From NCBI GenBank assembly GCA_004022145.1, contig RCNU01000065.1: DNA of 7,447 bases; one strand, 5' to 3'. Both the position numbers and the translations under genes were made by a program. Shown one piece after another: positions 351 through 7,447 of this stretch; the first letter of the stretch is position 1, and each line of letters opens with the position of its first letter. Below the pieces are notes generated by a model that did no database searches, was not told the origin of the DNA, and was given only the letters and a program-made list of their open reading frames with translations. The DNA comes from Paecilomyces variotii (Eukaryota).

Positions 351-398
351 GTATTAAATTCTAACTTAGGTTAATTTTAAAATCCTTAATTTAAATAG
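351..398 (+). other. Intron-like segment (48 nt) containing palindrome 360-375
   Basis: AA|GTATTA start, AATAG end, typical fungal intron length. Branch site degenerate. Confidence 0.5.
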
Positions 399-1620
399 TT
401 CTTTTACTTTACTAATATAGTCTTAGGCTTTATAATAACTAAGGCTAGCAGGGCTAATTAAGGGCTTATTATTAACTATTATTATAATTTATTAGATTAT
501 AACTTATAAATATTATTTTTTTTTATTATTACAGATTATAAGTCTAGGTACTTATAATCTTTAATTAATACTTAGTTTTTTAATAAGTATTCTTTACTAT
601 AATTAAAAAATATTAATACTATAATTAAGGCAGATATATAATACCTAATATTTTTATTCTCTCTCTTTAACTAAGACTATATAGCTGTATAGAGAAATAT
701 TAGCGCAAATAAAGATATAACCTATCCCACTTAATAAGATTTAACTTAAGTTAGATCTAAAGTTTTTAACTAAACTAATATATAATAAAGATAAGTAAAT
801 AAAATTAAATAAATATATAATACTATCTATAAAGCAGTTATTAAAGTATATTACCTTCTAAATATATTTTAAGTAAATATATCCTCTAGCCGCATTAACT
901 GCTCTTAAAGATTTTAAATAGCTTAATACTCTTTATAAGATATTTTTTAAGGCTAGAGGTCTATATAAAAAAAGTAAAATTATAGAATTTCTTAATAATA
1001 CCGCAGTTATAATTAAGAAGAAGAGATATTTATTTAATAATCTAAAACTTATATATAAGATATTATTTAATCTAACCTAAGTTAGAATTAAATATATATT
1101 TATATTTTTATATATAGCTTAAGAAACTATCTGCAGTATTATAGGACTAAATTCTTAATAATTATAATAAAAAAAGTATTAAGATTAAATAAACTTATTT
1201 TAAATGCTTTTTATGCTATAATTAAATATATATTATACTTATATTATATAACTCTATAAGACTTATATTTATAAAGATTATAAAACTCTTTAATAATAAG
1301 GCAATAATAATAAGTTAATTATAATCTAACTTAAGTTAAATTATTATTAATTAACTCTATTATAAGAAGATAAATTATAGGCATATATAAATTTTAATAA
1401 AATTACCGCCTATATATAATTTAGAGATAATAGCTAAATTAAGAAAATTAGAGTCTTAAATAATAATTGCAGCTGCAATCTCCTTAAAAATCTAAATAAT
1501 ATTATTAATGCTATATAGCAATACTAATAGATTAAAGAATATTTAATTAAGATATTATATAATAAATAGGCAGAAAAACATATAGTAAATTTAAAGTTAA
1601 AAGACTTTATATAGACTAAA

Positions 1621-1667
1621 GTAAGTAGACTATAATCTAACTTAAGTTAATTACTAATATATTTAAG
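1621..1667 (+). other. Intron-like segment (47 nt) containing palindrome 1636-1651
   Basis: Canonical GTAAGT donor, TACTAAT branch-like site at 1652-1658, AAG acceptor. Confidence 0.65.
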
Positions 1668-1980
1668 CAAAGTAAGATAAATATATCTATATTTTATAAG
1701 ATACTATATTAATATTGCTAAAATATAAGTAGAAGCTTAATCTAGATAATATTAATAAGTTCCTTAAAATATATATACTTAATTTAATTAATAATATTAA
1801 GAAGTAGAAAAAGATATATAAGAAAATTAAATTATAAAAACATAAATTACTTTTTTTATATCTTAATAAGCAGTATAATCTAGTTAAGCTATAAAAGAAA
1901 GAAATTAAGAACTAATTAAATATATTTAAGAAGGTATTATTAAATCTTTTTAGCCTTAAAAAGAGAAGACTAAATAATAA

Positions 1981-2025
1981 GTATATATTCTAACTTAAGT
2001 TAGATTTTATAGTTATTAATCTTAG
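1981..2025 (+). other. Intron-like segment (45 nt) containing palindrome 1989-2004
   Basis: GTATAT (RIP product of GTATGT) ... TATTAAT ... CTTAG. Confidence 0.5.
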
Positions 2026-2102
2026 AAATATCTCTAAAAATTAGCCTATAAATATAATAGAGCAAAGTATAGCAGGTATAATAAAGTAAAATATAATAAA
2101 TA

Positions 2103-2183
2103 AAATAAAATAGAGTATAATAATAGATAAAATAAAATAGAGTATAATAGTAAGCGAAATAAAATAAAATATAATAAATTAAA
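2103..2183. repeat. 27-bp tandem repeat, 3 degenerate units (plus a partial unit from ~2083)
   Basis: AAATAAAATAGAGTATAATA at 2103 and 2130; AAATAAAATAAAATATAATA (G>A variant) at 2157. Exact period 27. Confidence 0.7.
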
Positions 2184-3364
2184 GTATTATTATTAACTTA
2201 CTCTAAGAGGCTAAGATTATAGTTTATTAATTTATCTTAGCTTAAGAATATAAAAAAATTATAACTAATATAAGAGAGCCTATAAAAGATTTATTTAAGC
2301 TATTTTCTCTTTTTTTTAATAAAAAAAAAGCTAAAAAGAAAATTAAATAAGGATTAAAAAATATATCTACCTTTAATAAGAGAGAAAAAAAAATAAAAAG
2401 TCTTAAGAATAAGATTACTTTTAGAAATAAGATAGCTTCTCTATTATTATAAATATTAAATATTCTAAATAAATTCTAACTTAAGTTAGATTTAGATAAT
2501 ATTTATTAGTATATAAGTTCTCTTCCTTAGTCTTATAAGCTCTAATATATTTTAAAATTTTAATAATAACTTCTCTTATTATAAGATAACTTTCTTCTCT
2601 TAATAATATAAAACCTTTATTTCTTATTATTATTTTAAGAGATAATAATTAAAAGATAGAAATAATAGAATAGCCGGGCTCTTATATAAATATAAAATAT
2701 TATATTATTTATCTTAAAACTTTTAAATATATATAAAAAGAATTCTAACTTAAGTTAAAATGCTATAGATATTATATTATTGTTAATACTATTATCTTCT
2801 AGTTTTTTTTTCTTACTTTATTCTAATATAGATATATTAAGATTACTAGGTCCTTTATTATAGTTTCAGAATTATATTATTTATATTCTTATAGAGACTT
2901 ATAAGACTCCTTTATCTTTAAATATTAATATCTAGGATATAAATTTTAATTATAATCTTATTAAATAATATAAGCCCTAATCTAAAGCTAATATTCTTAA
3001 CTTAACTAAACTTAAGATAATAAGATATAGTTAAAGAAAAGTTATTATCTATTTAGCTCTTCTAAAATAGATTTAGATTTTTAAATTTTAATAAAATAAA
3101 ATAAAGTTTATAAAATAGTAATCTAAGTTTTAATAAGTAAAAATAAAAACTTAATTATATATATAATAATATTATTAAGAAATTATAGATAATATTTCTA
3201 GCATCTTATATATATAATATTTATATTACTCTATATTTCTTTAATATCTTTATAAAAGAAGAAATAGCACTAGCTTAATAGCTACCTATATAAAAAGGGC
3301 TATATACTAATTTAGAGATAAGACTTAGAAAAATAATAATATTTAAAATATATTAATTATAAAG

Positions 3365-3413
3365 GTAAGAACTAGGTAATTAATATAGATTTTATTACTA
3401 ATATTTTCTTTAG
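3365..3413 (+). other. Spliceosomal intron 1 of transposase relic (49 nt, phase 0)
   Basis: AAG|GTAAGA donor, TACTAAT branch-like site at 3396-3402, TTTAG| acceptor. Removing it joins the BED-domain frame to the catalytic-domain frame, which are otherwise different frames. Confidence 0.8.
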
Positions 3414-4149
3414 AAAACTTTTAATCTAATATATATACTAGATATATTATATAATCAGATCCTATATTTTATTATAGAATATTACTAATTATTTTAAATA
3501 GTTAAATATATTTAGTTCTACTGTATATTATATATAGCTGCTAGTAATTTATATCTAGAGTTATTTAACTAATATTAGATTTAAGCACGCCTTTTTAAAT
3601 TTAAGGAGATTAATTATATTAAAATACTATTATATTTATTAGAGTAAGAAAAGATTTTTTTAGCATTAGATTATTAGACTAATTAAAGTTAATATTCTTT
3701 TCTTACTATAACTAGGTATTTTATTAATATAAAATAAGTATATAGAGAAGTACTCTTAGCCTTTAATCTTATTTATAAATTATATATTAGGAAAAACTTA
3801 GCTAAAATACTATTAAAAAATCTTTATTAATATAATCTATAATATTAGATTCTTACTATTATTATAAATAATATAAGTAATAATATTACCTTAATAGCGG
3901 AGCTAGATAAAAGCCTAAGAGATAAGCTTAAAATAGATTTATTATTAGAAGATTTCTAAGATATAATATTAATTAATTTATTTTAAATTGTTATTATATT
4001 CTATATTTAGTATATATTTTATAATTTATAGTTAATGCTTTACTAGGTAAACTTTATATTAATATTTTTATTAATAATAGTATTAGTTAGGATATAAAAA
4101 AGATAGAGGCCTATTATATCTTTAGAATATTCTAATATTATTAGAAAAG

Positions 4150-4200
4150 GTATTCTCTATTTAACTTAAGTTAGATTAATATTAATAGATTTCTATATAG
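4150..4200 (+). other. Spliceosomal intron 2 of transposase relic (51 nt, phase 0), contains palindrome 4160-4175
   Basis: AAG|GTATTC ... TATTAAT ... TATAG|G. Splicing gives contiguous LLEK|VHKIIRFINASPQR, the usual helix before the hAT SPxR motif. Confidence 0.75.
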
Positions 4201-4969
4201 GTTTATAAGATTATTAGATTTATTAATATAAGCCCTTAGTATTAAGAATATTTCCTAATATTATAATAATTAAGTATTAATTAGCTAAAATTATTACTTC
4301 TTAATTATTAGACACAATAGAATTTAATATATTTTATATTTATATATACCCTTAAACTATATGTAGTAATTAGACGATTTATTATATTATAGGCTAATAA
4401 AGATATTTATTTTCTGATATTATCCCCTATTAAATAGTATTAGGTTAAATATCTTATTAAGTTAATTTAGCTATTCTATAATCTTATTCTTACTATATTA
4501 AAGATAAATAGTCTATTAATTTATAAGGTTTTTAAAATCTATAATACTATCTTTAATTATCTTAATAACTATATAGAGCGTTTAAAATTAAAAAGAGCTA
4601 TATAGAAGATATAACTCTAAAATACTTTATTTAAAGCTTATAATAAGTTATAAACTTATTATGCTAAAATATATAAATCTTAAGGATTTATATATATAAT
4701 TATAATAATCCTTTACCCTAGTATAAAACTTAAATATTTTAAAACTTAAGTCTAGTAAGATATAATAAAAAACTAATATAATATTTATAAAAAGATTTTT
4801 TATAAGATATTTTAATACTATAATAATTAAAATCTAAATATTAAGGTATAATTAAGAACCTATTTATTAGTCTTAATCTTAGATTATATGCTTATATAAT
4901 CTAAATATTATTATCTCCCTTTAAGTACTACTAGTATTTATTAAGAAATTTAAACTTATTTTACTAAAG

Positions 4970-5032
4970 GTAATATTCTATTTAATATTATACTTAAATT
5001 ATATAATATTATTTTAACTTAAGTTAGATTAG
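4970..5032 (+). other. Spliceosomal intron 3 of transposase relic (63 nt, phase 1), contains palindrome 5013-5028
   Basis: AAAG|GTAATA ... TTAG|G. Splicing joins EIQTYF.E-G to ..DILDYWR, restoring the short E..Y...W spacing at the start of the hAT dimerisation domain. Confidence 0.75.
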
Positions 5033-5706
5033 GTTTATTAAAATTAAATAATATTCTTAATTATTAGAGAATTAATAAATACTAATTCCTAATTTTTATA
5101 ATAATAGCCTGAGATTTTTTTATAATCTTATTAAGTAATATTAGTATAGAATAATTATTTAATAGTGCCTAAAATATCTGCTATTATTAATATAGCTAAT
5201 TACTTTCTAATATAATCTATATTTTAATACTTCTTATATATACTAAAAATTTCACTATTTAGCAAGAGTTTAAGGCAATAATTAATAATATAGATATAAT
5301 ATCTAATAATTAATAATTTAAAAGAGGAGAGATTAAATTACTAAATCTAATTAGTAATAATAAGGATATAGATAATATATTAGAAAGAGAGATAAATATA
5401 AATAATAAAGATTATTAAATAAAGCAGTTTAGGGGTTAAGGTCTTTTAAATATTTAAATAGATTAACCTATTACTAAGTCTATTTATAATAAAGGAGAAT
5501 AATTAGATAAATTGCCTATACCTAGAGTTTCTATTATAGTAAGGAGAATTAGTATAAAGAATGTAATTAGTTAAGAGGTTATATACTTTTACTTAAAGTC
5601 TTTAAAAAGTCTATAAATAAAGTAGGAGAAGAGAAAGGATAGTAAAGAGATATCTTTTAGTTATTTAGAATAAAATAATTAGCTTTTCCTTTCTATTATT
5701 ATTTAG

Positions 5707-7447
5707 TATCAGTTCAGTATTAGATTATTATTAGTTTACTATATTAGTTTATAGCTAGAGCTTCTCCTCTAGCTTTACTCTAAGCTTTAAAGCCAAATAC
5801 CCTTTTTTTCTTTCTTAATACCTACTCACTTAAAGACTCTATATTAAGTCTTAATATATCTTCCTATAATAAATTAAAGCTAAATATAAGGGGTATTAAA
5901 ATATTAAATAAAAATAAAAAAGAAAGGAGAATTAGAAACTAAGATTAAAGCTAAAGCTGAGGAAAGAAATAAAAAATAGTAAAAAAATAAGTAAAATAGC
6001 TAAAAAAGATTACTACTATAAATAAAAAGAGATAAATATATCTCTTAAATTAGCAGAAATAGTAAATATAATATAAAATAAAAATATATATTAATAATAA
6101 GAGAAAGGAAAGACTATTAAATATAAAAAAGAGCTTAATAAATATAAAAGGGAAATAAAAATTTAAAAGGAATAAGAAATTATTAAATAAGAACTATTTA
6201 TTAAAAAGTAGAAGAATTTCTTATTATTATCTTTATTATTATTCCTTTAAAAAAATATAGAGAAAAGCACTAATCTTTTTAGTATTAGTTAAAATAAAAA
6301 GACTCTTAGCTTCTTAATATTACTAAATCTAAAGGTATAAATAGCTTAGGCATTTAAAAATATAGGACTATTAATAATATAGCTAATCTAGGTTATATTA
6401 GCTCTATAAATACTAATACTTAAAAATCCTAGGGTATTATATTTTAAAGGAGATAATATTATTTATTACCTAAGGCTTTTTAAAAAATTATATAAGGTAA
6501 ATTAATTCCTAAAAAAGGAAAAAACTAAATAGTTTATAGACTATTATAGCCTATTAGTATTATTATAAATAAATACTTAATCTAAATATAAAGAGAAAAA
6601 CTACCTAAAACTAGCAGAAATAATTAAATAAGAATATACTTACTATAATAAATACTAAAAGAAATATAATATTTAATAACTAAAAAGATTTAAAAATATA
6701 AAATATAATAGCTTTAAGAACCTAAAAAAATATAATTAAAAATATTAAGCTATATTAGAAGCGCTAATAACTTTAAATAAGTTAAGCTAATACTTATAGA
6801 GAATTTAATATTTTTAAAGACTTTTAAAAAAGCTTAAGTAATAAATAATTTAAGAGTTAAATATAGACTATTATATTCTATCTACTATTAAATATACTAA
6901 TTTTTATAAGGAAGTAATAAATAAAGTAAGAATAATTAAAACCTTTTATTATCTTAATAATAATAAACTAGAGAAAGATTAAGATATAATAGCTTTAATA
7001 AAAGAAAAGATAATTAAAGAAAATAATATATAATTTCTTATTAAATTTAATAAAACTTACCTAAATAAAAATAAGAATAAGATTAAATAATAGAGTATTA
7101 AAGTAAAGTTAACAGAGTAATTATAAATTAATTAATTAATAAAAAAGTTTAAGAAGTTAAAACTATATAATATATAGTATATAGGGAGGCCTAATAATAG
7201 TATACCTAATACTAGTATAAATATATAAGCTAAGATATCTTTAGAATTTAACCTAATTAGAAAATCTAAAATATTTCTAAACTTATATAACTTCTATTAA
7301 GCTTCTAATTATATCTAATCTTACTGCCTAGATTTAAAAAGCCTTTTAAATTAGAAGCTTATCTATTAGAGAGAAGACTATAAACTTTACTTTAGGCTAG
7401 AAAGATAGAATAAGAAGTTATTTATCTTATATAGGGAAATATATTAT
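5707..7447 (+). mobile_element. Probable 5' part (LTR/leader + gag) of an LTR retrotransposon
   Basis: Inferred from the gag relic. TATCAG at 5707 could be a RIP-altered TGTCAG LTR start, but no second LTR, PBS or TSD is visible, so the left boundary is speculative. Confidence 0.4.
6379..7447 (+). pseudogene. gag: Ty3/gypsy-type LTR retrotransposon gag relic (RIP-inactivated, runs off window end)
   Basis: De-RIP reading PYFEGDNITHYLRLFEELC...EEKAKRFVDYC...Y..L...IKQEY...D.YQ from 6437 resembles fungal gypsy Gag N-termini. CCHC knuckle C-x2-C-x4-H-x4-C (CNFCQAxDHIRSYC-PDL) at 7286-7327, last Cys TGC intact. Possible start ATA (<ATG) at 6379. Frameshifts present. Confidence 0.72.

What the first reader, a model, noticed from the sequence alone, without database searches (positions are those of the whole stretch)
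351..5032. A conserved 16-bp palindrome sits inside intron after intron of a hAT element
Seen: ten copies of TCTAACTTAAGTTAGA (360, 740, 1071, 1325, 1636, 1989, 2475, 2744, 4160, 5013) with otherwise unrelated flanks. Within the ~2.7 kb transposase gene, the only two copies fall in introns 4150-4200 and 4970-5032, which are defined independently by protein continuity; no full copy is in an exon. Upstream, three copies are in GT..AG segments of 45-48 nt and three more in 57-63 nt segments needing one G>A reversion at the donor. The intron context of copies 2475 and 2744 is unresolved. Established: hAT transposases (Ac, Hermes) bind multiple short repeats, but these are normally subterminal; fungal introner-like elements are normally similar along their whole length. 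Inference: introns serve as coding-neutral slots for a dyad-symmetric site spread along the element. It could be a binding array for a dimeric element-encoded protein (synapsis or autoregulation), an RNA hairpin coordinating splicing, or the footprint of an intron-generating insertion process. I do not recognise this as a described arrangement, but I cannot search the literature.
Basis: partly seen in the sequence, partly recalled or inferred. Interest (0 to 1): 0.82.

Follow-up and report, generated by a model that had tools for sequence, protein, structure and literature searches.

The report
Shared palindrome in transposon introns
A dead, mutation-riddled fungal jumping gene carries the same 16-letter mirror-image DNA word ten times, apparently only inside its short introns, which suggests an undescribed control signal whose function has not been tested.

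Summary
TCTAACTTAAGTTAGA occurs 10 times at the stated coordinates: 2 exact, 6 with 1 mismatch, 1 with 2, 1 with 3. Shuffles give 0.73 on average. The window is heavily RIP-mutated fungal DNA holding a hAT transposase and an upstream co-oriented multi-exon gene. Protein evidence places three copies in introns: 4160 and 5013 by continuity with spliced homologues, 1071 by the ORF of another copy. ORFs called on other copies of the same element (P0001, P0154) run out of an exon and stop at the TAA inside the palindrome, so the motif is native, not made by RIP. It has a stop in all six frames, so it can sit only in non-coding DNA. New here: dyad symmetry extends about 12-16 nt beyond the core. There are no target-site duplications. 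Two relatives with an intron at the same sites keep only CTAAC. One likely hAT intron (3365-3413) lacks the motif. Best reading (0.4): an element-specific intronic cis-element read as RNA. Rivals are a DNA binding array or a symmetrical, introner-like intron family. The closest known case is the symmetrical sister introns of Xylariales. Function is untested.

The parts
360..375 (.). palindrome copy 1 (3 mismatches), 9 nt after a GTATTA donor-like site at 351
   Evidence: intron status inferred
740..755 (.). palindrome copy 2 (1 mismatch, C2>T)
   Evidence: ATAAGA donor-like site 6 nt upstream; intron status inferred
1071..1086 (.). palindrome copy 3 (1 mismatch); the ORF of another copy (P0154) ends at its TAA (1078-1080)
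1325..1340 (.). palindrome copy 4 (1 mismatch, G15>A)
   Evidence: ATAAGT 15 nt upstream
1636..1651 (.). palindrome copy 5 (2 mismatches); intact GTAAGT donor at 1621
1989..2004 (.). palindrome copy 6 (exact)
   Evidence: ATAAGT 12 nt upstream; hairpin -3.8 kcal/mol
2475..2490 (.). palindrome copy 7 (exact); intron context unresolved
2744..2759 (.). palindrome copy 8 (1 mismatch); intron context unresolved
4160..4175 (.). palindrome copy 9 (1 mismatch), in the hAT intron 4150-4200
5013..5028 (.). palindrome copy 10 (1 mismatch), in the hAT intron 4970-5032; P0001 ends at its TAA (5020-5022)
820..1059 (+). exon of the upstream gene of unknown family, frame 1
   Evidence: P0154 (86 aa, 81% identity, E 3.3e-30); 85 of 86 residues share a possible pre-RIP codon with the window, ungapped
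1060..1111 (+). intron of the upstream gene; the donor GTATTA is mutated to ATATTA in the window
   Evidence: P0154 has V (GTN) where the window has ATA at 1060-1062; the acceptor is inferred
351..2025 (+). span holding further putative short introns of the upstream gene (351-398, about 734-790, 1310-1366, 1621-1667, 1977-2025)
   Evidence: donor-like motifs, frame logic and 3-base periodicity; inferred, no RNA data
3365..3413 (+). candidate hAT intron WITHOUT the palindrome (AAG|GTAAGA ... TACTAAT ... TTTCTTTAG); it would join a BED-like frame-2 exon to the frame-3 catalytic exon
   Evidence: direct reading; donor listed; weak BED-like alignment, E 0.2; inferred
3414..3962 (+). hAT transposase exon, frame 3 (catalytic N-terminal part)
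   Evidence: local blastp to P0010, P0020, P0090, P0102, P0151, E 5e-7 to 7e-15
3963..4149 (+). hAT coding stretch with two frame changes (f3 to f2 to f1). Its length matches homologues, so the changes are indels, not introns
   Evidence: coordinates; motifs read by eye; inferred
4150..4200 (+). hAT intron (51 nt)
   Evidence: LLEK + VYKIIRFINISPQ matches P0151 TLEK-VRRITRYINASPQ without a gap (read by eye); GT..AG ends
4201..4969 (+). hAT exon, frame 1
   Evidence: phmmer hit P0001, E 7.6e-69; 227 of 228 P0001 residues reachable by undoing C>T/G>A only
4970..5032 (+). hAT intron (63 nt)
   Evidence: it is an insertion relative to 4 of 4 spliced full-length homologues (P0009, P0010, P0020, P0151); P0001 and P0002 read through it
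5033..5440 (+). hAT C-terminal exon with the dimerisation region; the end point is approximate
   Evidence: Dimer_Tnp_hAT 13.5 bits, E 0.064, below the cut-off of 21.4; P0013 57% identity; blastp extends to 5385-5442

Best explanation
The ten palindromes are one conserved cis-element of a two-gene hAT-family DNA transposon, now inactivated by RIP. The element holds an upstream gene of unknown family and the transposase, both on the + strand. The motif sits in their short spliceosomal introns, the only transcribed places that can hold it, because it has a stop codon in all six frames. I think it most likely acts on the pre-mRNA. UCUAAC matches the fungal branch-site consensus (recalled) and pairs with GUUAGA. 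The result is either a local hairpin, lengthened by copy-specific complementary arms, or a 16-bp duplex between any two introns that carry the same self-complementary word. Either structure would hide or mimic a branch site close to the 5' splice site, making splicing of both genes conditional. Retained introns would give truncated products. Shown: presence, non-chance number, native (pre-RIP) state, intron location for 3 copies, extended dyad symmetry, absence in two read-through relatives (P0002, P0003). Inferred: intron location of 5 more copies, action at RNA level, and the regulatory outcome.
For: Number and placement: 10 copies against 0.73 expected, and none in about 2.8 kb of equally RIP-mutated flank. 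Native state: P0001 and P0154 come from other copies of the same element. 227 of 228 and 85 of 86 of their residues are explained by RIP-type changes alone, ungapped. Both run out of an exon and stop at the palindrome's TAA (...IILT*...FNLT*). Intron location: the 63-nt segment is absent from 4 of 4 spliced homologues; the 51-nt segment likewise, by eye; the chance that both hAT copies fall in those two introns is about 0.002. There are stops in all six frames. Strand: donor-like motifs occur only on the + strand. Structure: the core hairpin folds at -3.8 kcal/mol, and three introns extend the stem (-7.5 to -9.4, z -1.6 to -2.8). Flank complementarity is 86 of 160 against 56.6 (sd 6.3) at random centres. 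TTAA-centred controls give 5.6 of 16 against 8.6 (P 8e-5). Arms swapped between copies give 68.3 (sd 4.7; P 3e-4). Symmetry stops beyond about 16 nt. The core CTAAC lies only 10-19 nt from the donor in 7 of the 8 copies with a donor assigned. From my recall of minimal lariat sizes, that is too close to serve as the working branch site, so it is more likely a decoy or structural element.
Against: The loop (TTAA) is as conserved as the stem. A simple hairpin does not need that, and it fits a DNA dyad site equally well. The covariation is modest. The tool's own test, which counts G-U pairs, gives 66.4% paired against 61.9% (19 of 500 shuffles reach it) and a covariation score reached by 16 of 500. 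The purine/pyrimidine version gives P 0.03. Part of the arm complementarity comes from an A-rich 5' side and a T-rich 3' side, which I would expect of introns in general (recalled). RIP-damaged copies do not fold well. A likely hAT intron (3365-3413) lacks the motif, so it is not needed for splicing as such. The two hAT introns have weak arms (6 and 9 of 16).
Confidence: 0.4

Rival explanations
1. It is a DNA-level array. The 16-bp dyad is the binding site of a dimeric protein: the transposase BED domain, the upstream gene's product or a host factor. The sites are parked in introns because they cannot be coded through. They would serve synapsis, autoregulation, enhancer activity or chromatin marking.
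For: It is a perfect dyad including the centre. Sequence, not just pairing, is conserved in all ten copies, loop included. The motif has stops in all six frames. The copies are confined to the element's gene region. The element encodes a second protein of unknown function.
Against: Half-sites never occur alone. The copies are spread over 4.7 kb at 254-1416 bp spacing, not clustered as the subterminal hAT sites I recall from Ac and Hermes; the element's ends were not located. Symmetry extending 12-16 nt beyond the core with copy-specific arms is not expected of a protein site.
Confidence: 0.25
2. It is a family of internally symmetrical introns of common descent (introner-like, as in Xylariales). 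One hairpin intron multiplied within the element lineage, and the palindrome is simply its best-kept part, with no regulatory role.
For: Each copy is an imperfect palindrome of about 45 nt round a perfect core. The consensus arms are themselves partly symmetrical. Similarity between copies' arms is slightly above background (0.38-0.46 against about 0.35). The upstream gene is intron-dense, with about one palindrome per 300 nt. Precedent: symmetrical sister introns with a central 10-nt palindrome (PMC8469720; PMC12403724; passages read).
Against: Only 16-18 nt are shared in register, whereas described families are similar along their whole length. The intron-2 position is shared by about 30 relatives and the intron-1 position by P0003, so these introns predate the motif; P0002 and P0003 show CTAAC but not the palindrome. 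Neutral decay would erode the core as fast as the arms, so selection or homogenisation is still needed. No copy in any host gene could be examined.
Confidence: 0.2
3. It is a tiny mobile insertion (a MITE-like pair of back-to-back terminal repeats, or a transposon footprint) that landed repeatedly in the element.
For: Identical short units lie in different contexts. The central TTAA and the dyad form recall terminal repeat pairs (my recollection).
Against: No direct repeats flank the unit in any of 12 tests (unit = core +0, +1 or +2 bases; k = 2, 3, 4, 8; smallest P 0.09). Copies avoid exons in a gene that is intact in other copies. The same sites are occupied in independent copies (P0001, P0154). 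In 131 viral and metagenome loci with the exact word, 129 have a single site, and the only two with two sites are bacterial.
Confidence: 0.03
4. It is chance, a composition effect, or a by-product of RIP in AT-rich DNA.
For: The window is 16-18% GC with a strong RIP signature, and the motif is AT-rich.
Against: 0 of 200 shuffles reach 10 copies. There are none in the flanking RIP-mutated DNA. The lightly mutated or unmutated copy P0001 already encodes ...LT-stop at the site. 7 of the 11 differences from the consensus are C>T or G>A, so RIP degrades the motif rather than making it.
Confidence: 0.01

Closest known systems
Internally symmetrical 'sister' introns and stwintrons of Hypoxylaceae/Xylariaceae (Fekete et al. 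2021, PMC8469720; 2025 follow-up, PMC12403724; passages read)
   Same: Both are short fungal U2-type introns built as imperfect inverted repeats meeting at a perfect central palindrome (there 5'-TTTCTAGAAA, 10 nt). Both are predicted to form hairpins or intron-intron duplexes. Neither shows target-site duplications.
   Different: There the copies are similar along their whole 93-207 nt, sit in unrelated host genes at new positions, and the palindrome carries no splice signal. Here only 16-18 nt are shared, and the arms are copy-specific and short (12-16 nt). All known copies lie in one transposon. At least one intron position (intron 2) is old. The core contains the branch-site consensus.
Introner-like elements and introners (Dothideomycetes ILEs: PMC3609843 and PMC4457414, abstracts seen in the listing; transposon-type introners of Huff 2016 and Gozashti 2022, as summarised in PMC12403724)
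   Same: Both are multi-copy introns with predicted secondary structure. A dyad that reads the same on both strands would suit orientation-independent splicing.
   Different: Here there is no whole-length similarity, no TIR+TSD signature and no evidence of copies in host genes.
hAT subterminal transposase-binding repeats (Ac, Hermes; recalled, not read)
   Same: Both are multiple copies of a short word within a hAT element.
   Different: As I recall them, those are 5-6 bp monomers clustered near the ends. Here there is a 16-bp dyad, never as half-sites, spread through the gene region in introns.
Regulated intron retention in transposase genes (P element third intron; alternative splicing of the fungal hAT element restless; recalled, not read)
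   Same: In both, a transposon limits or shapes its own protein output through splicing.
   Different: I know of no shared palindromic intron motif in those systems. Regulation here is only inferred.

Membership tests
hAT superfamily transposon | C-terminal hAT dimerisation domain (Pfam PF05699) | tested here: inconclusive
   Read-through of window 5032-5286 scores 13.5 bits, E 0.064, below the cut-off of 21.4, as expected after RIP. Of 11 homologues scanned, 8 pass the cut-off. P0013 (57% identical to the window) scores 39.8 bits.
hAT superfamily transposon | homology to the transposase catalytic core | tested here: met
   phmmer gives 185 proteins at E<=1e-3, 27 at <=1e-10 and 2 at <=1e-30. 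Local blastp to 9 full-length relatives covers 3447-3962 (frame 3) and 4144-5442 (frame 1).
hAT superfamily transposon | terminal inverted repeats and 8-bp target-site duplication | not testable with these tools
   The ends were not located. No other DNA copy could be fetched.
RIP-mutated repeat | CpA/TpG depletion and TpA excess | tested here: met
   CpA observed/expected 0.16, TpG 0.12, TpA/ApT 1.33, (CpA+TpG)/(ApC+GpT) 0.20. P0001 differs from the window by C>T/G>A-type changes at all but 1 of 228 codons.
Spliceosomal intron (for each palindrome-bearing segment) | absent from spliced homologous proteins, with GT..AG ends | tested here: met
   Met for 4970-5032 (4 of 4 spliced homologues) and, by eye, for 4150-4200. 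The donor only is supported for 1060-1111. The other 7 copies are inferred or unresolved. No RNA evidence exists for any.
Introner-like elements / introners | many copies similar along their whole length, in unrelated genes | tested here: not met
   Only 16-18 nt are conserved in register. All copies lie in one element. The host genome is not held, so host genes could not be examined.
Introner-like elements / introners | TIR plus target-site duplication (DNA-transposon type) | tested here: not met
   There is no excess of flanking direct repeats in 12 tests.
Internally symmetrical sister introns (Xylariales) | inverted-repeat arms meeting at a central perfect palindrome | tested here: met
   86 of 160 arm positions are complementary, against 56.6 at random centres and 68.3 with swapped arms. 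The tool's test is weaker: 19 of 500 shuffles reach the observed pairing. The arms are only about 12-16 nt.
Internally symmetrical sister introns (Xylariales) | high global sequence similarity among copies, at novel positions in host genes | tested here: not met
   The intron-2 position is shared with about 30 relatives.
hAT subterminal binding-site array | short monomeric motifs clustered near the element ends | tested here: not met
   Half-sites occur only inside the dyad (7 of 7 CTAAC, 6 of 7 GTTAG). Copies span 360-5028.
Known RNA families (Rfam 15) | match to a covariance model | tested here: not met
   0 matches at E<=1 over the whole window; 0 tRNAs.

The most novel reading that the evidence does not exclude
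The palindrome is the working core of an orientation-independent, self-pairing intron system carried by a DNA transposon. This perfectly self-complementary 16-mer offers a branch-site sequence on either strand. It would let introns of one transcript, or excised intron RNAs, pair with one another, producing double-stranded or circular RNAs. Those products could seed new introns or small RNAs, which would link transposon spread to intron gain.
Probability: 0.12. Interest if true: 0.85.

Novelty: new variant of a known kind. Interest (0 to 1): 0.62.

Why it matters
Where new introns come from, and how transposons tune their own expression, are open questions. This transposon has at least three, and probably eight or more, introns in two genes sharing one exact self-complementary word containing a branch-site sequence. 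Intact copies exist in public assemblies (P0001), so the idea can be tested directly by RNA-seq, minigenes and binding assays. If the motif controls splicing, it is a compact module for co-regulating several introns. If it marks a multiplying intron family, it ties the symmetrical introns of Xylariales to a mobile element. If it is a DNA site, it shows binding sites placed in introns because they cannot be coded through.

Tried and rejected
1. Alternative genetic code (ciliate table 6): all frames open only because TGA is rare. The RIP signature explains the stops.

2. Pfam on whole six-frame read-throughs gave 0 hits. Pfam on 16 upstream or hAT pieces and 60 right-flank pieces gave only sub-threshold noise.

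3. Own genome: not held.

So there is no RNA or paralogue evidence.

5. Exact palindrome elsewhere. Viral contigs: 11 loci, one site each. Of the 131 loci held, 129 have one site and 2 have two. The largest recurrent group (19 sites in 18 loci picked by my pattern) is an intergenic stretch after a bacterial response-regulator gene, judged from one locus, L117, and is unrelated. No copy of this element was found.

A3 found none in genome contigs or viral contigs.

7. Upstream protein identity: frame-1 exon 1654-1992 gave no hit. This is weak evidence, since only 6 five-residue words are shared even between the window and P0001. The 'longer' search for exon 757-1068 gave none. The Atlas on P0154 gave no usable hit.

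8. Purine/pyrimidine codon periodicity was too weak to assign frames. Stop density and 3-base periodicity give only soft support for the upstream gene model.

9. A gene on the minus strand: there are no donor-like motifs there, and its open frames look compositional.

10. Target-site duplications: none.

11. Literature. Motif strings gave 0 papers for the 16-mer and the 14-mer, and one unrelated paper for the 12-mer. Keyword searches found no description of this arrangement. Supplements were not seen.

Full report
**What the window is.** The 7447-bp window has 14-23% GC and a strong RIP signature: CpA observed/expected 0.16, TpG 0.12, TpA/ApT 1.33, (CpA+TpG)/(ApC+GpT) 0.20. Under the standard code only four ORFs of 60 aa or more exist. 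Under a ciliate code every frame opens simply because TGA is rare. I therefore read TAA/TAG as Q and TGA as W purely as a device to search with RIP-broken frames.

**The observation.** Dinucleotide-preserving shuffles give a mean of 0.73 and a maximum of 5; 0 of 200 reach 10. Copies 1989 and 2475 are exact. Six copies have one mismatch, 1636 has two and 360 has three. Seven of the 11 differences are C>T or G>A at positions 2 and 15, so RIP erodes the motif rather than creating it. No copy lies in 1-350 or 5033-7447, which have the same composition. All 7 CTAAC on the + strand and 6 of 7 GTTAG lie inside the motif. In fixed register, conservation ends sharply at 16-18 bp.

**The transposase.** A frame-1 read-through of 2761-5286, searched by phmmer against 1.84 billion representatives, gave 185 hits at E<=1e-3, 27 at <=1e-10 and 2 at <=1e-30. 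Of 11 hits scanned, 8 carry Pfam Dimer_Tnp_hAT above its cut-off. The window's own C-terminal piece reaches only 13.5 bits. Named cluster members include HAT-dimerisation proteins of Aspergillus terreus and Penicillium antarcticum. Local blastp with nine full-length relatives places homology in frame 3 at 3447-3962 and in frame 1 at 4144-5442.

**An intact copy exists.** The top hit, P0001 (228 aa, unnamed assembly), is the pre-RIP state of this element. Placed without gaps on window codons 4336-5019, 227 of its 228 residues are reachable by undoing only C>T/G>A.

**The two introns in the transposase.**
- The window's 21 read-through residues for 4970-5032 are an insertion relative to 4 of 4 spliced full-length homologues (P0009, P0010, P0020, P0151). 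The unspliced ORF calls P0001 and P0002 read through them.
- For 4150-4200, joining ...LLEK to VYKIIRFINISPQ reproduces P0151's ...TLEK-VRRITRYINASPQ without a gap (by eye).
- Both segments have GT..AG ends and both hold a palindrome. The chance that two random 16-mers in 3447-5300 both fall in these two segments is about 0.002.
- P0001 ends ...EG-NVPSNIISKSHSIILT and then a stop. It leaves the exon, reads 16 intron codons and stops at the TAA inside the palindrome (L-T-stop = yTA ACT TAA). So at least the first 9-10 nt of the motif are native.

**The upstream gene.** The frame-1 read-through of 757-1068 found P0154 (86 aa, 81% identity, E 3.3e-30). Of its 86 residues, 85 share a possible pre-RIP codon with the window, ungapped from 820, so it is another, independently mutated copy. 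It ends ...AYKVLFNLT-stop, again at the palindrome's TAA (1078-1080). It has V where the window has ATA at 1060-1062, which shows a donor AAG|GTATTA that the window lost by a G>A change.

**Other upstream introns are inferred.**
- Donor-like [GA]TAAG[TA] lies 6-16 nt upstream of five copies and 35 nt upstream of a sixth, on the + strand, and never on the - strand (6 of 10 within 6-45 nt, against a null mean of 2.25, P about 0.013). GTATTA lies 9 nt before copy 360.
- Following splice phases from exon 820-1059 gives frames 1, 2, 2, 1, 2. This agrees with the low-stop frames in most exons and with the position-1 G excess in 1668-1976, but that exon has the highest stop density in its predicted frame.
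- Three-base periodicity is significant only at about 1680-2280.
- The intron context of copies 2475 and 2744 remains unresolved.
- The protein has no recognisable family.

**Properties of the motif.**
- It has a stop in all three forward frames (TAG, TAA, TAA) and, being a palindrome, in all six. In a functional gene it can persist only in introns or UTRs whatever it does.
- It contains CTAAC, the fungal branch-site consensus (recalled).
- In 7 of the 8 copies with a donor assigned, the motif begins only 7-16 nt into the intron. Several of those introns have a second branch-like word nearer the acceptor, for example TACTAAT in 1621-1667. So the core CTAAC is probably not the working branch site there (inference from my recall of minimal lariat sizes). 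Only in 4970-5032 is it placed as a normal branch site, 15 nt before the acceptor.
- The perfect core folds as a 6-bp hairpin with a UUAA loop at -3.8 kcal/mol. Three introns extend the stem (-7.5 to -9.4 kcal/mol; z -1.6 to -2.8). RIP-damaged copies fold no better than shuffles.

**New finding: extended dyad symmetry.**
- Over the 16 nt on each side, 86 of 160 positions are complementary. Random centres give 56.6 (sd 6.3; 0 of 5000 reach 86).
- 240 TTAA-centred control sites give 5.6 of 16 against 8.6 (Mann-Whitney P 8e-5). The excess is gone beyond about 16 nt.
- Pairing each left arm with another copy's right arm gives 68.3 (sd 4.7; P 3e-4). So part of the symmetry is copy-specific, meaning the arms differ between copies yet match within a copy.
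- The signal is weaker in other tests. The purine/pyrimidine version gives 98 against 87.6 (P 0.03). The pair-counting tool, which accepts G-U, gives 66.4% against 61.9% paired (19 of 500 shuffles) and covariation 0.249 against 0.188 (16 of 500).
- Cross-copy complementarity (0.43) is itself above background (0.35). I attribute this to the A-rich 5' side and T-rich 3' side that I would expect of introns in general (recalled).
- So each unit is an imperfect palindrome of about 45 nt round a perfect 16-nt core, but the covariation evidence is moderate, not decisive.

**Evidence on origin.**
- There is no excess of flanking direct repeats in 12 tests, which argues against insertion of a small DNA transposon.
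- About 30 relatives in the hit set are unspliced ORF calls that read into an intron at the same place, after ...Y-L-x-x-G. My pattern picked 34 rows, a few of which are probably other sites. So intron 2 is old.
- P0002 reads through 21 codons there with ...FLTSFNLFLG, and P0003 reads through intron 1 with ...NLTR.... Both show L-T (compatible with CTAACT) but no TAA, so these relatives keep a branch site without the palindrome.
- Only P0028 (...ANNLS-stop, which fits the AAC TTA AGT TAG frame) and perhaps P0008 (...QSNSS-stop) could carry something similar. This cannot be proven from protein alone.
- The motif is therefore lineage-specific and was acquired by, or maintained in, at least some pre-existing introns.

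**An intron without the motif.** The segment 3365-3413 (AAG|GTAAGA ... TACTAAT ... TTTCTTTAG, 49 nt) would join a frame-2 exon to the frame-3 catalytic exon. That frame-2 exon has a pattern Y-x2-Y-x22-Y-x5-Y. RIP turns both Cys and His codons into Tyr, so the pattern could derive from a BED finger. The alignment to P0020 is weak (E 0.2). If this intron is real (my estimate 0.65), one of three transposase introns lacks the palindrome, so the motif is not needed for splicing as such.

**Frame changes.** Between 3962 and 4150 the reading frame changes twice, although the length matches homologues. I take these changes to be indels in a dead copy, not introns.

**Elsewhere.** The exact word occurs once per locus in 11 viral contigs. 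The main recurrent group lies after a bacterial response-regulator gene, judged from one locus, L117. No other DNA copy of the element, and no fungal multi-copy context, was found. The genome is not held. Searches for DNA of hAT relatives found nothing. Rfam and tRNA scans are empty.

**Literature.** Searching the motif strings found nothing relevant. Keyword searches turned up the closest precedent, the internally symmetrical sister introns and stwintrons of Hypoxylaceae and Xylariaceae. These have 45-55-nt inverted arms meeting at a perfect 10-nt palindrome, no target-site duplications, and predicted hairpins or intron-intron duplexes (PMC8469720 and PMC12403724, passages read). Those copies are similar along their whole length and sit in unrelated host genes, which is not what is seen here. 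A hAT element with a passenger gene upstream in the same orientation has a precedent in rust hAT7 elements (PMC12730594, abstract and passages read). Supplements were not available.

**Verdict.** The motif is native, is shared by independent copies, lies in introns for 3 of 3 copies testable by protein evidence, and is the perfect core of a longer imperfect dyad.
- My preferred mechanism (0.4) is an RNA-level element. A hairpin or an intron-intron duplex would hold a branch-site-like UCUAAC near the 5' splice site, making splicing of both element genes conditional, with all-frame stops ending any retained intron.
- A DNA-level dimer-binding array (0.25) is favoured by the strict conservation of the loop.
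- A symmetrical intron family of common descent (0.2) is favoured by the overall palindromic build.
- All three remain open because no RNA or binding data could be obtained.

Noticed in passing
window 3365-3413: This looks like a canonical short intron (AAG|GTAAGA ... TACTAAT ... TTTCTTTAG, 49 nt) without the palindrome. It would link a BED-finger-like frame-2 stretch (about 3215-3300, Y-x2-Y-x22-Y-x5-Y, where Tyr may be RIP-mutated Cys or His) to the frame-3 catalytic exon.
   Followed up: partly
window 3962-4150: The hAT reading frame shifts twice (frame 3 to 2 to 1) although the length matches homologues. These are likely indels, so this copy is broken beyond its RIP changes.
   Followed up: partly
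window 2077-2187: There is a degenerate tandem repeat (periods 15 and 27, multiples of three) inside a putative exon of the upstream gene. It contributes to the strong 3-base periodicity at 1920-2280.
   Followed up: no
window 5450-7447: This A-rich, RIP-type DNA has no palindrome and no recognisable protein in 60 read-through pieces. There is a small GC rise at 5501-6000 (0.23) and patches of 3-base periodicity at 5221-5580, 6181-6540 and 6841-7080. It may hold the element's 3' end plus another degraded repeat.
   Followed up: partly
P0013, P0154, P0003 (proteins): Other copies or relatives of the element in public assemblies are themselves partly RIP-mutated at different sites. The family was therefore hit by RIP several times independently, while P0001 looks almost untouched.
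   Followed up: partly
L016, L020, L031, L042, L063, L066, L079, L086, L096, L103, L105, L113, L115-L118, L120, L125 (metagenome loci): The same 16-mer sits at the centre of a conserved stretch that recurs in these metagenome loci. In the one locus examined (L117) it lies just after a LuxR-type response-regulator gene. This is unrelated to the fungal element but may be an operator or terminator.
   Followed up: partly
L015, L027, L033, L053, L059, L093 (metagenome loci): In another recurrent context the palindrome is extended to 22 bp by a CTC/GAG pair on either side. Its origin is unknown.
   Followed up: no
palindrome positions 2/15 versus 6/11, all ten copies: The outer C/G pair is mutated in 7 of 20 instances and the inner C/G pair in 0 of 20, although both C's are followed by T. 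This may reflect RIP context preference or chance.
   Followed up: no
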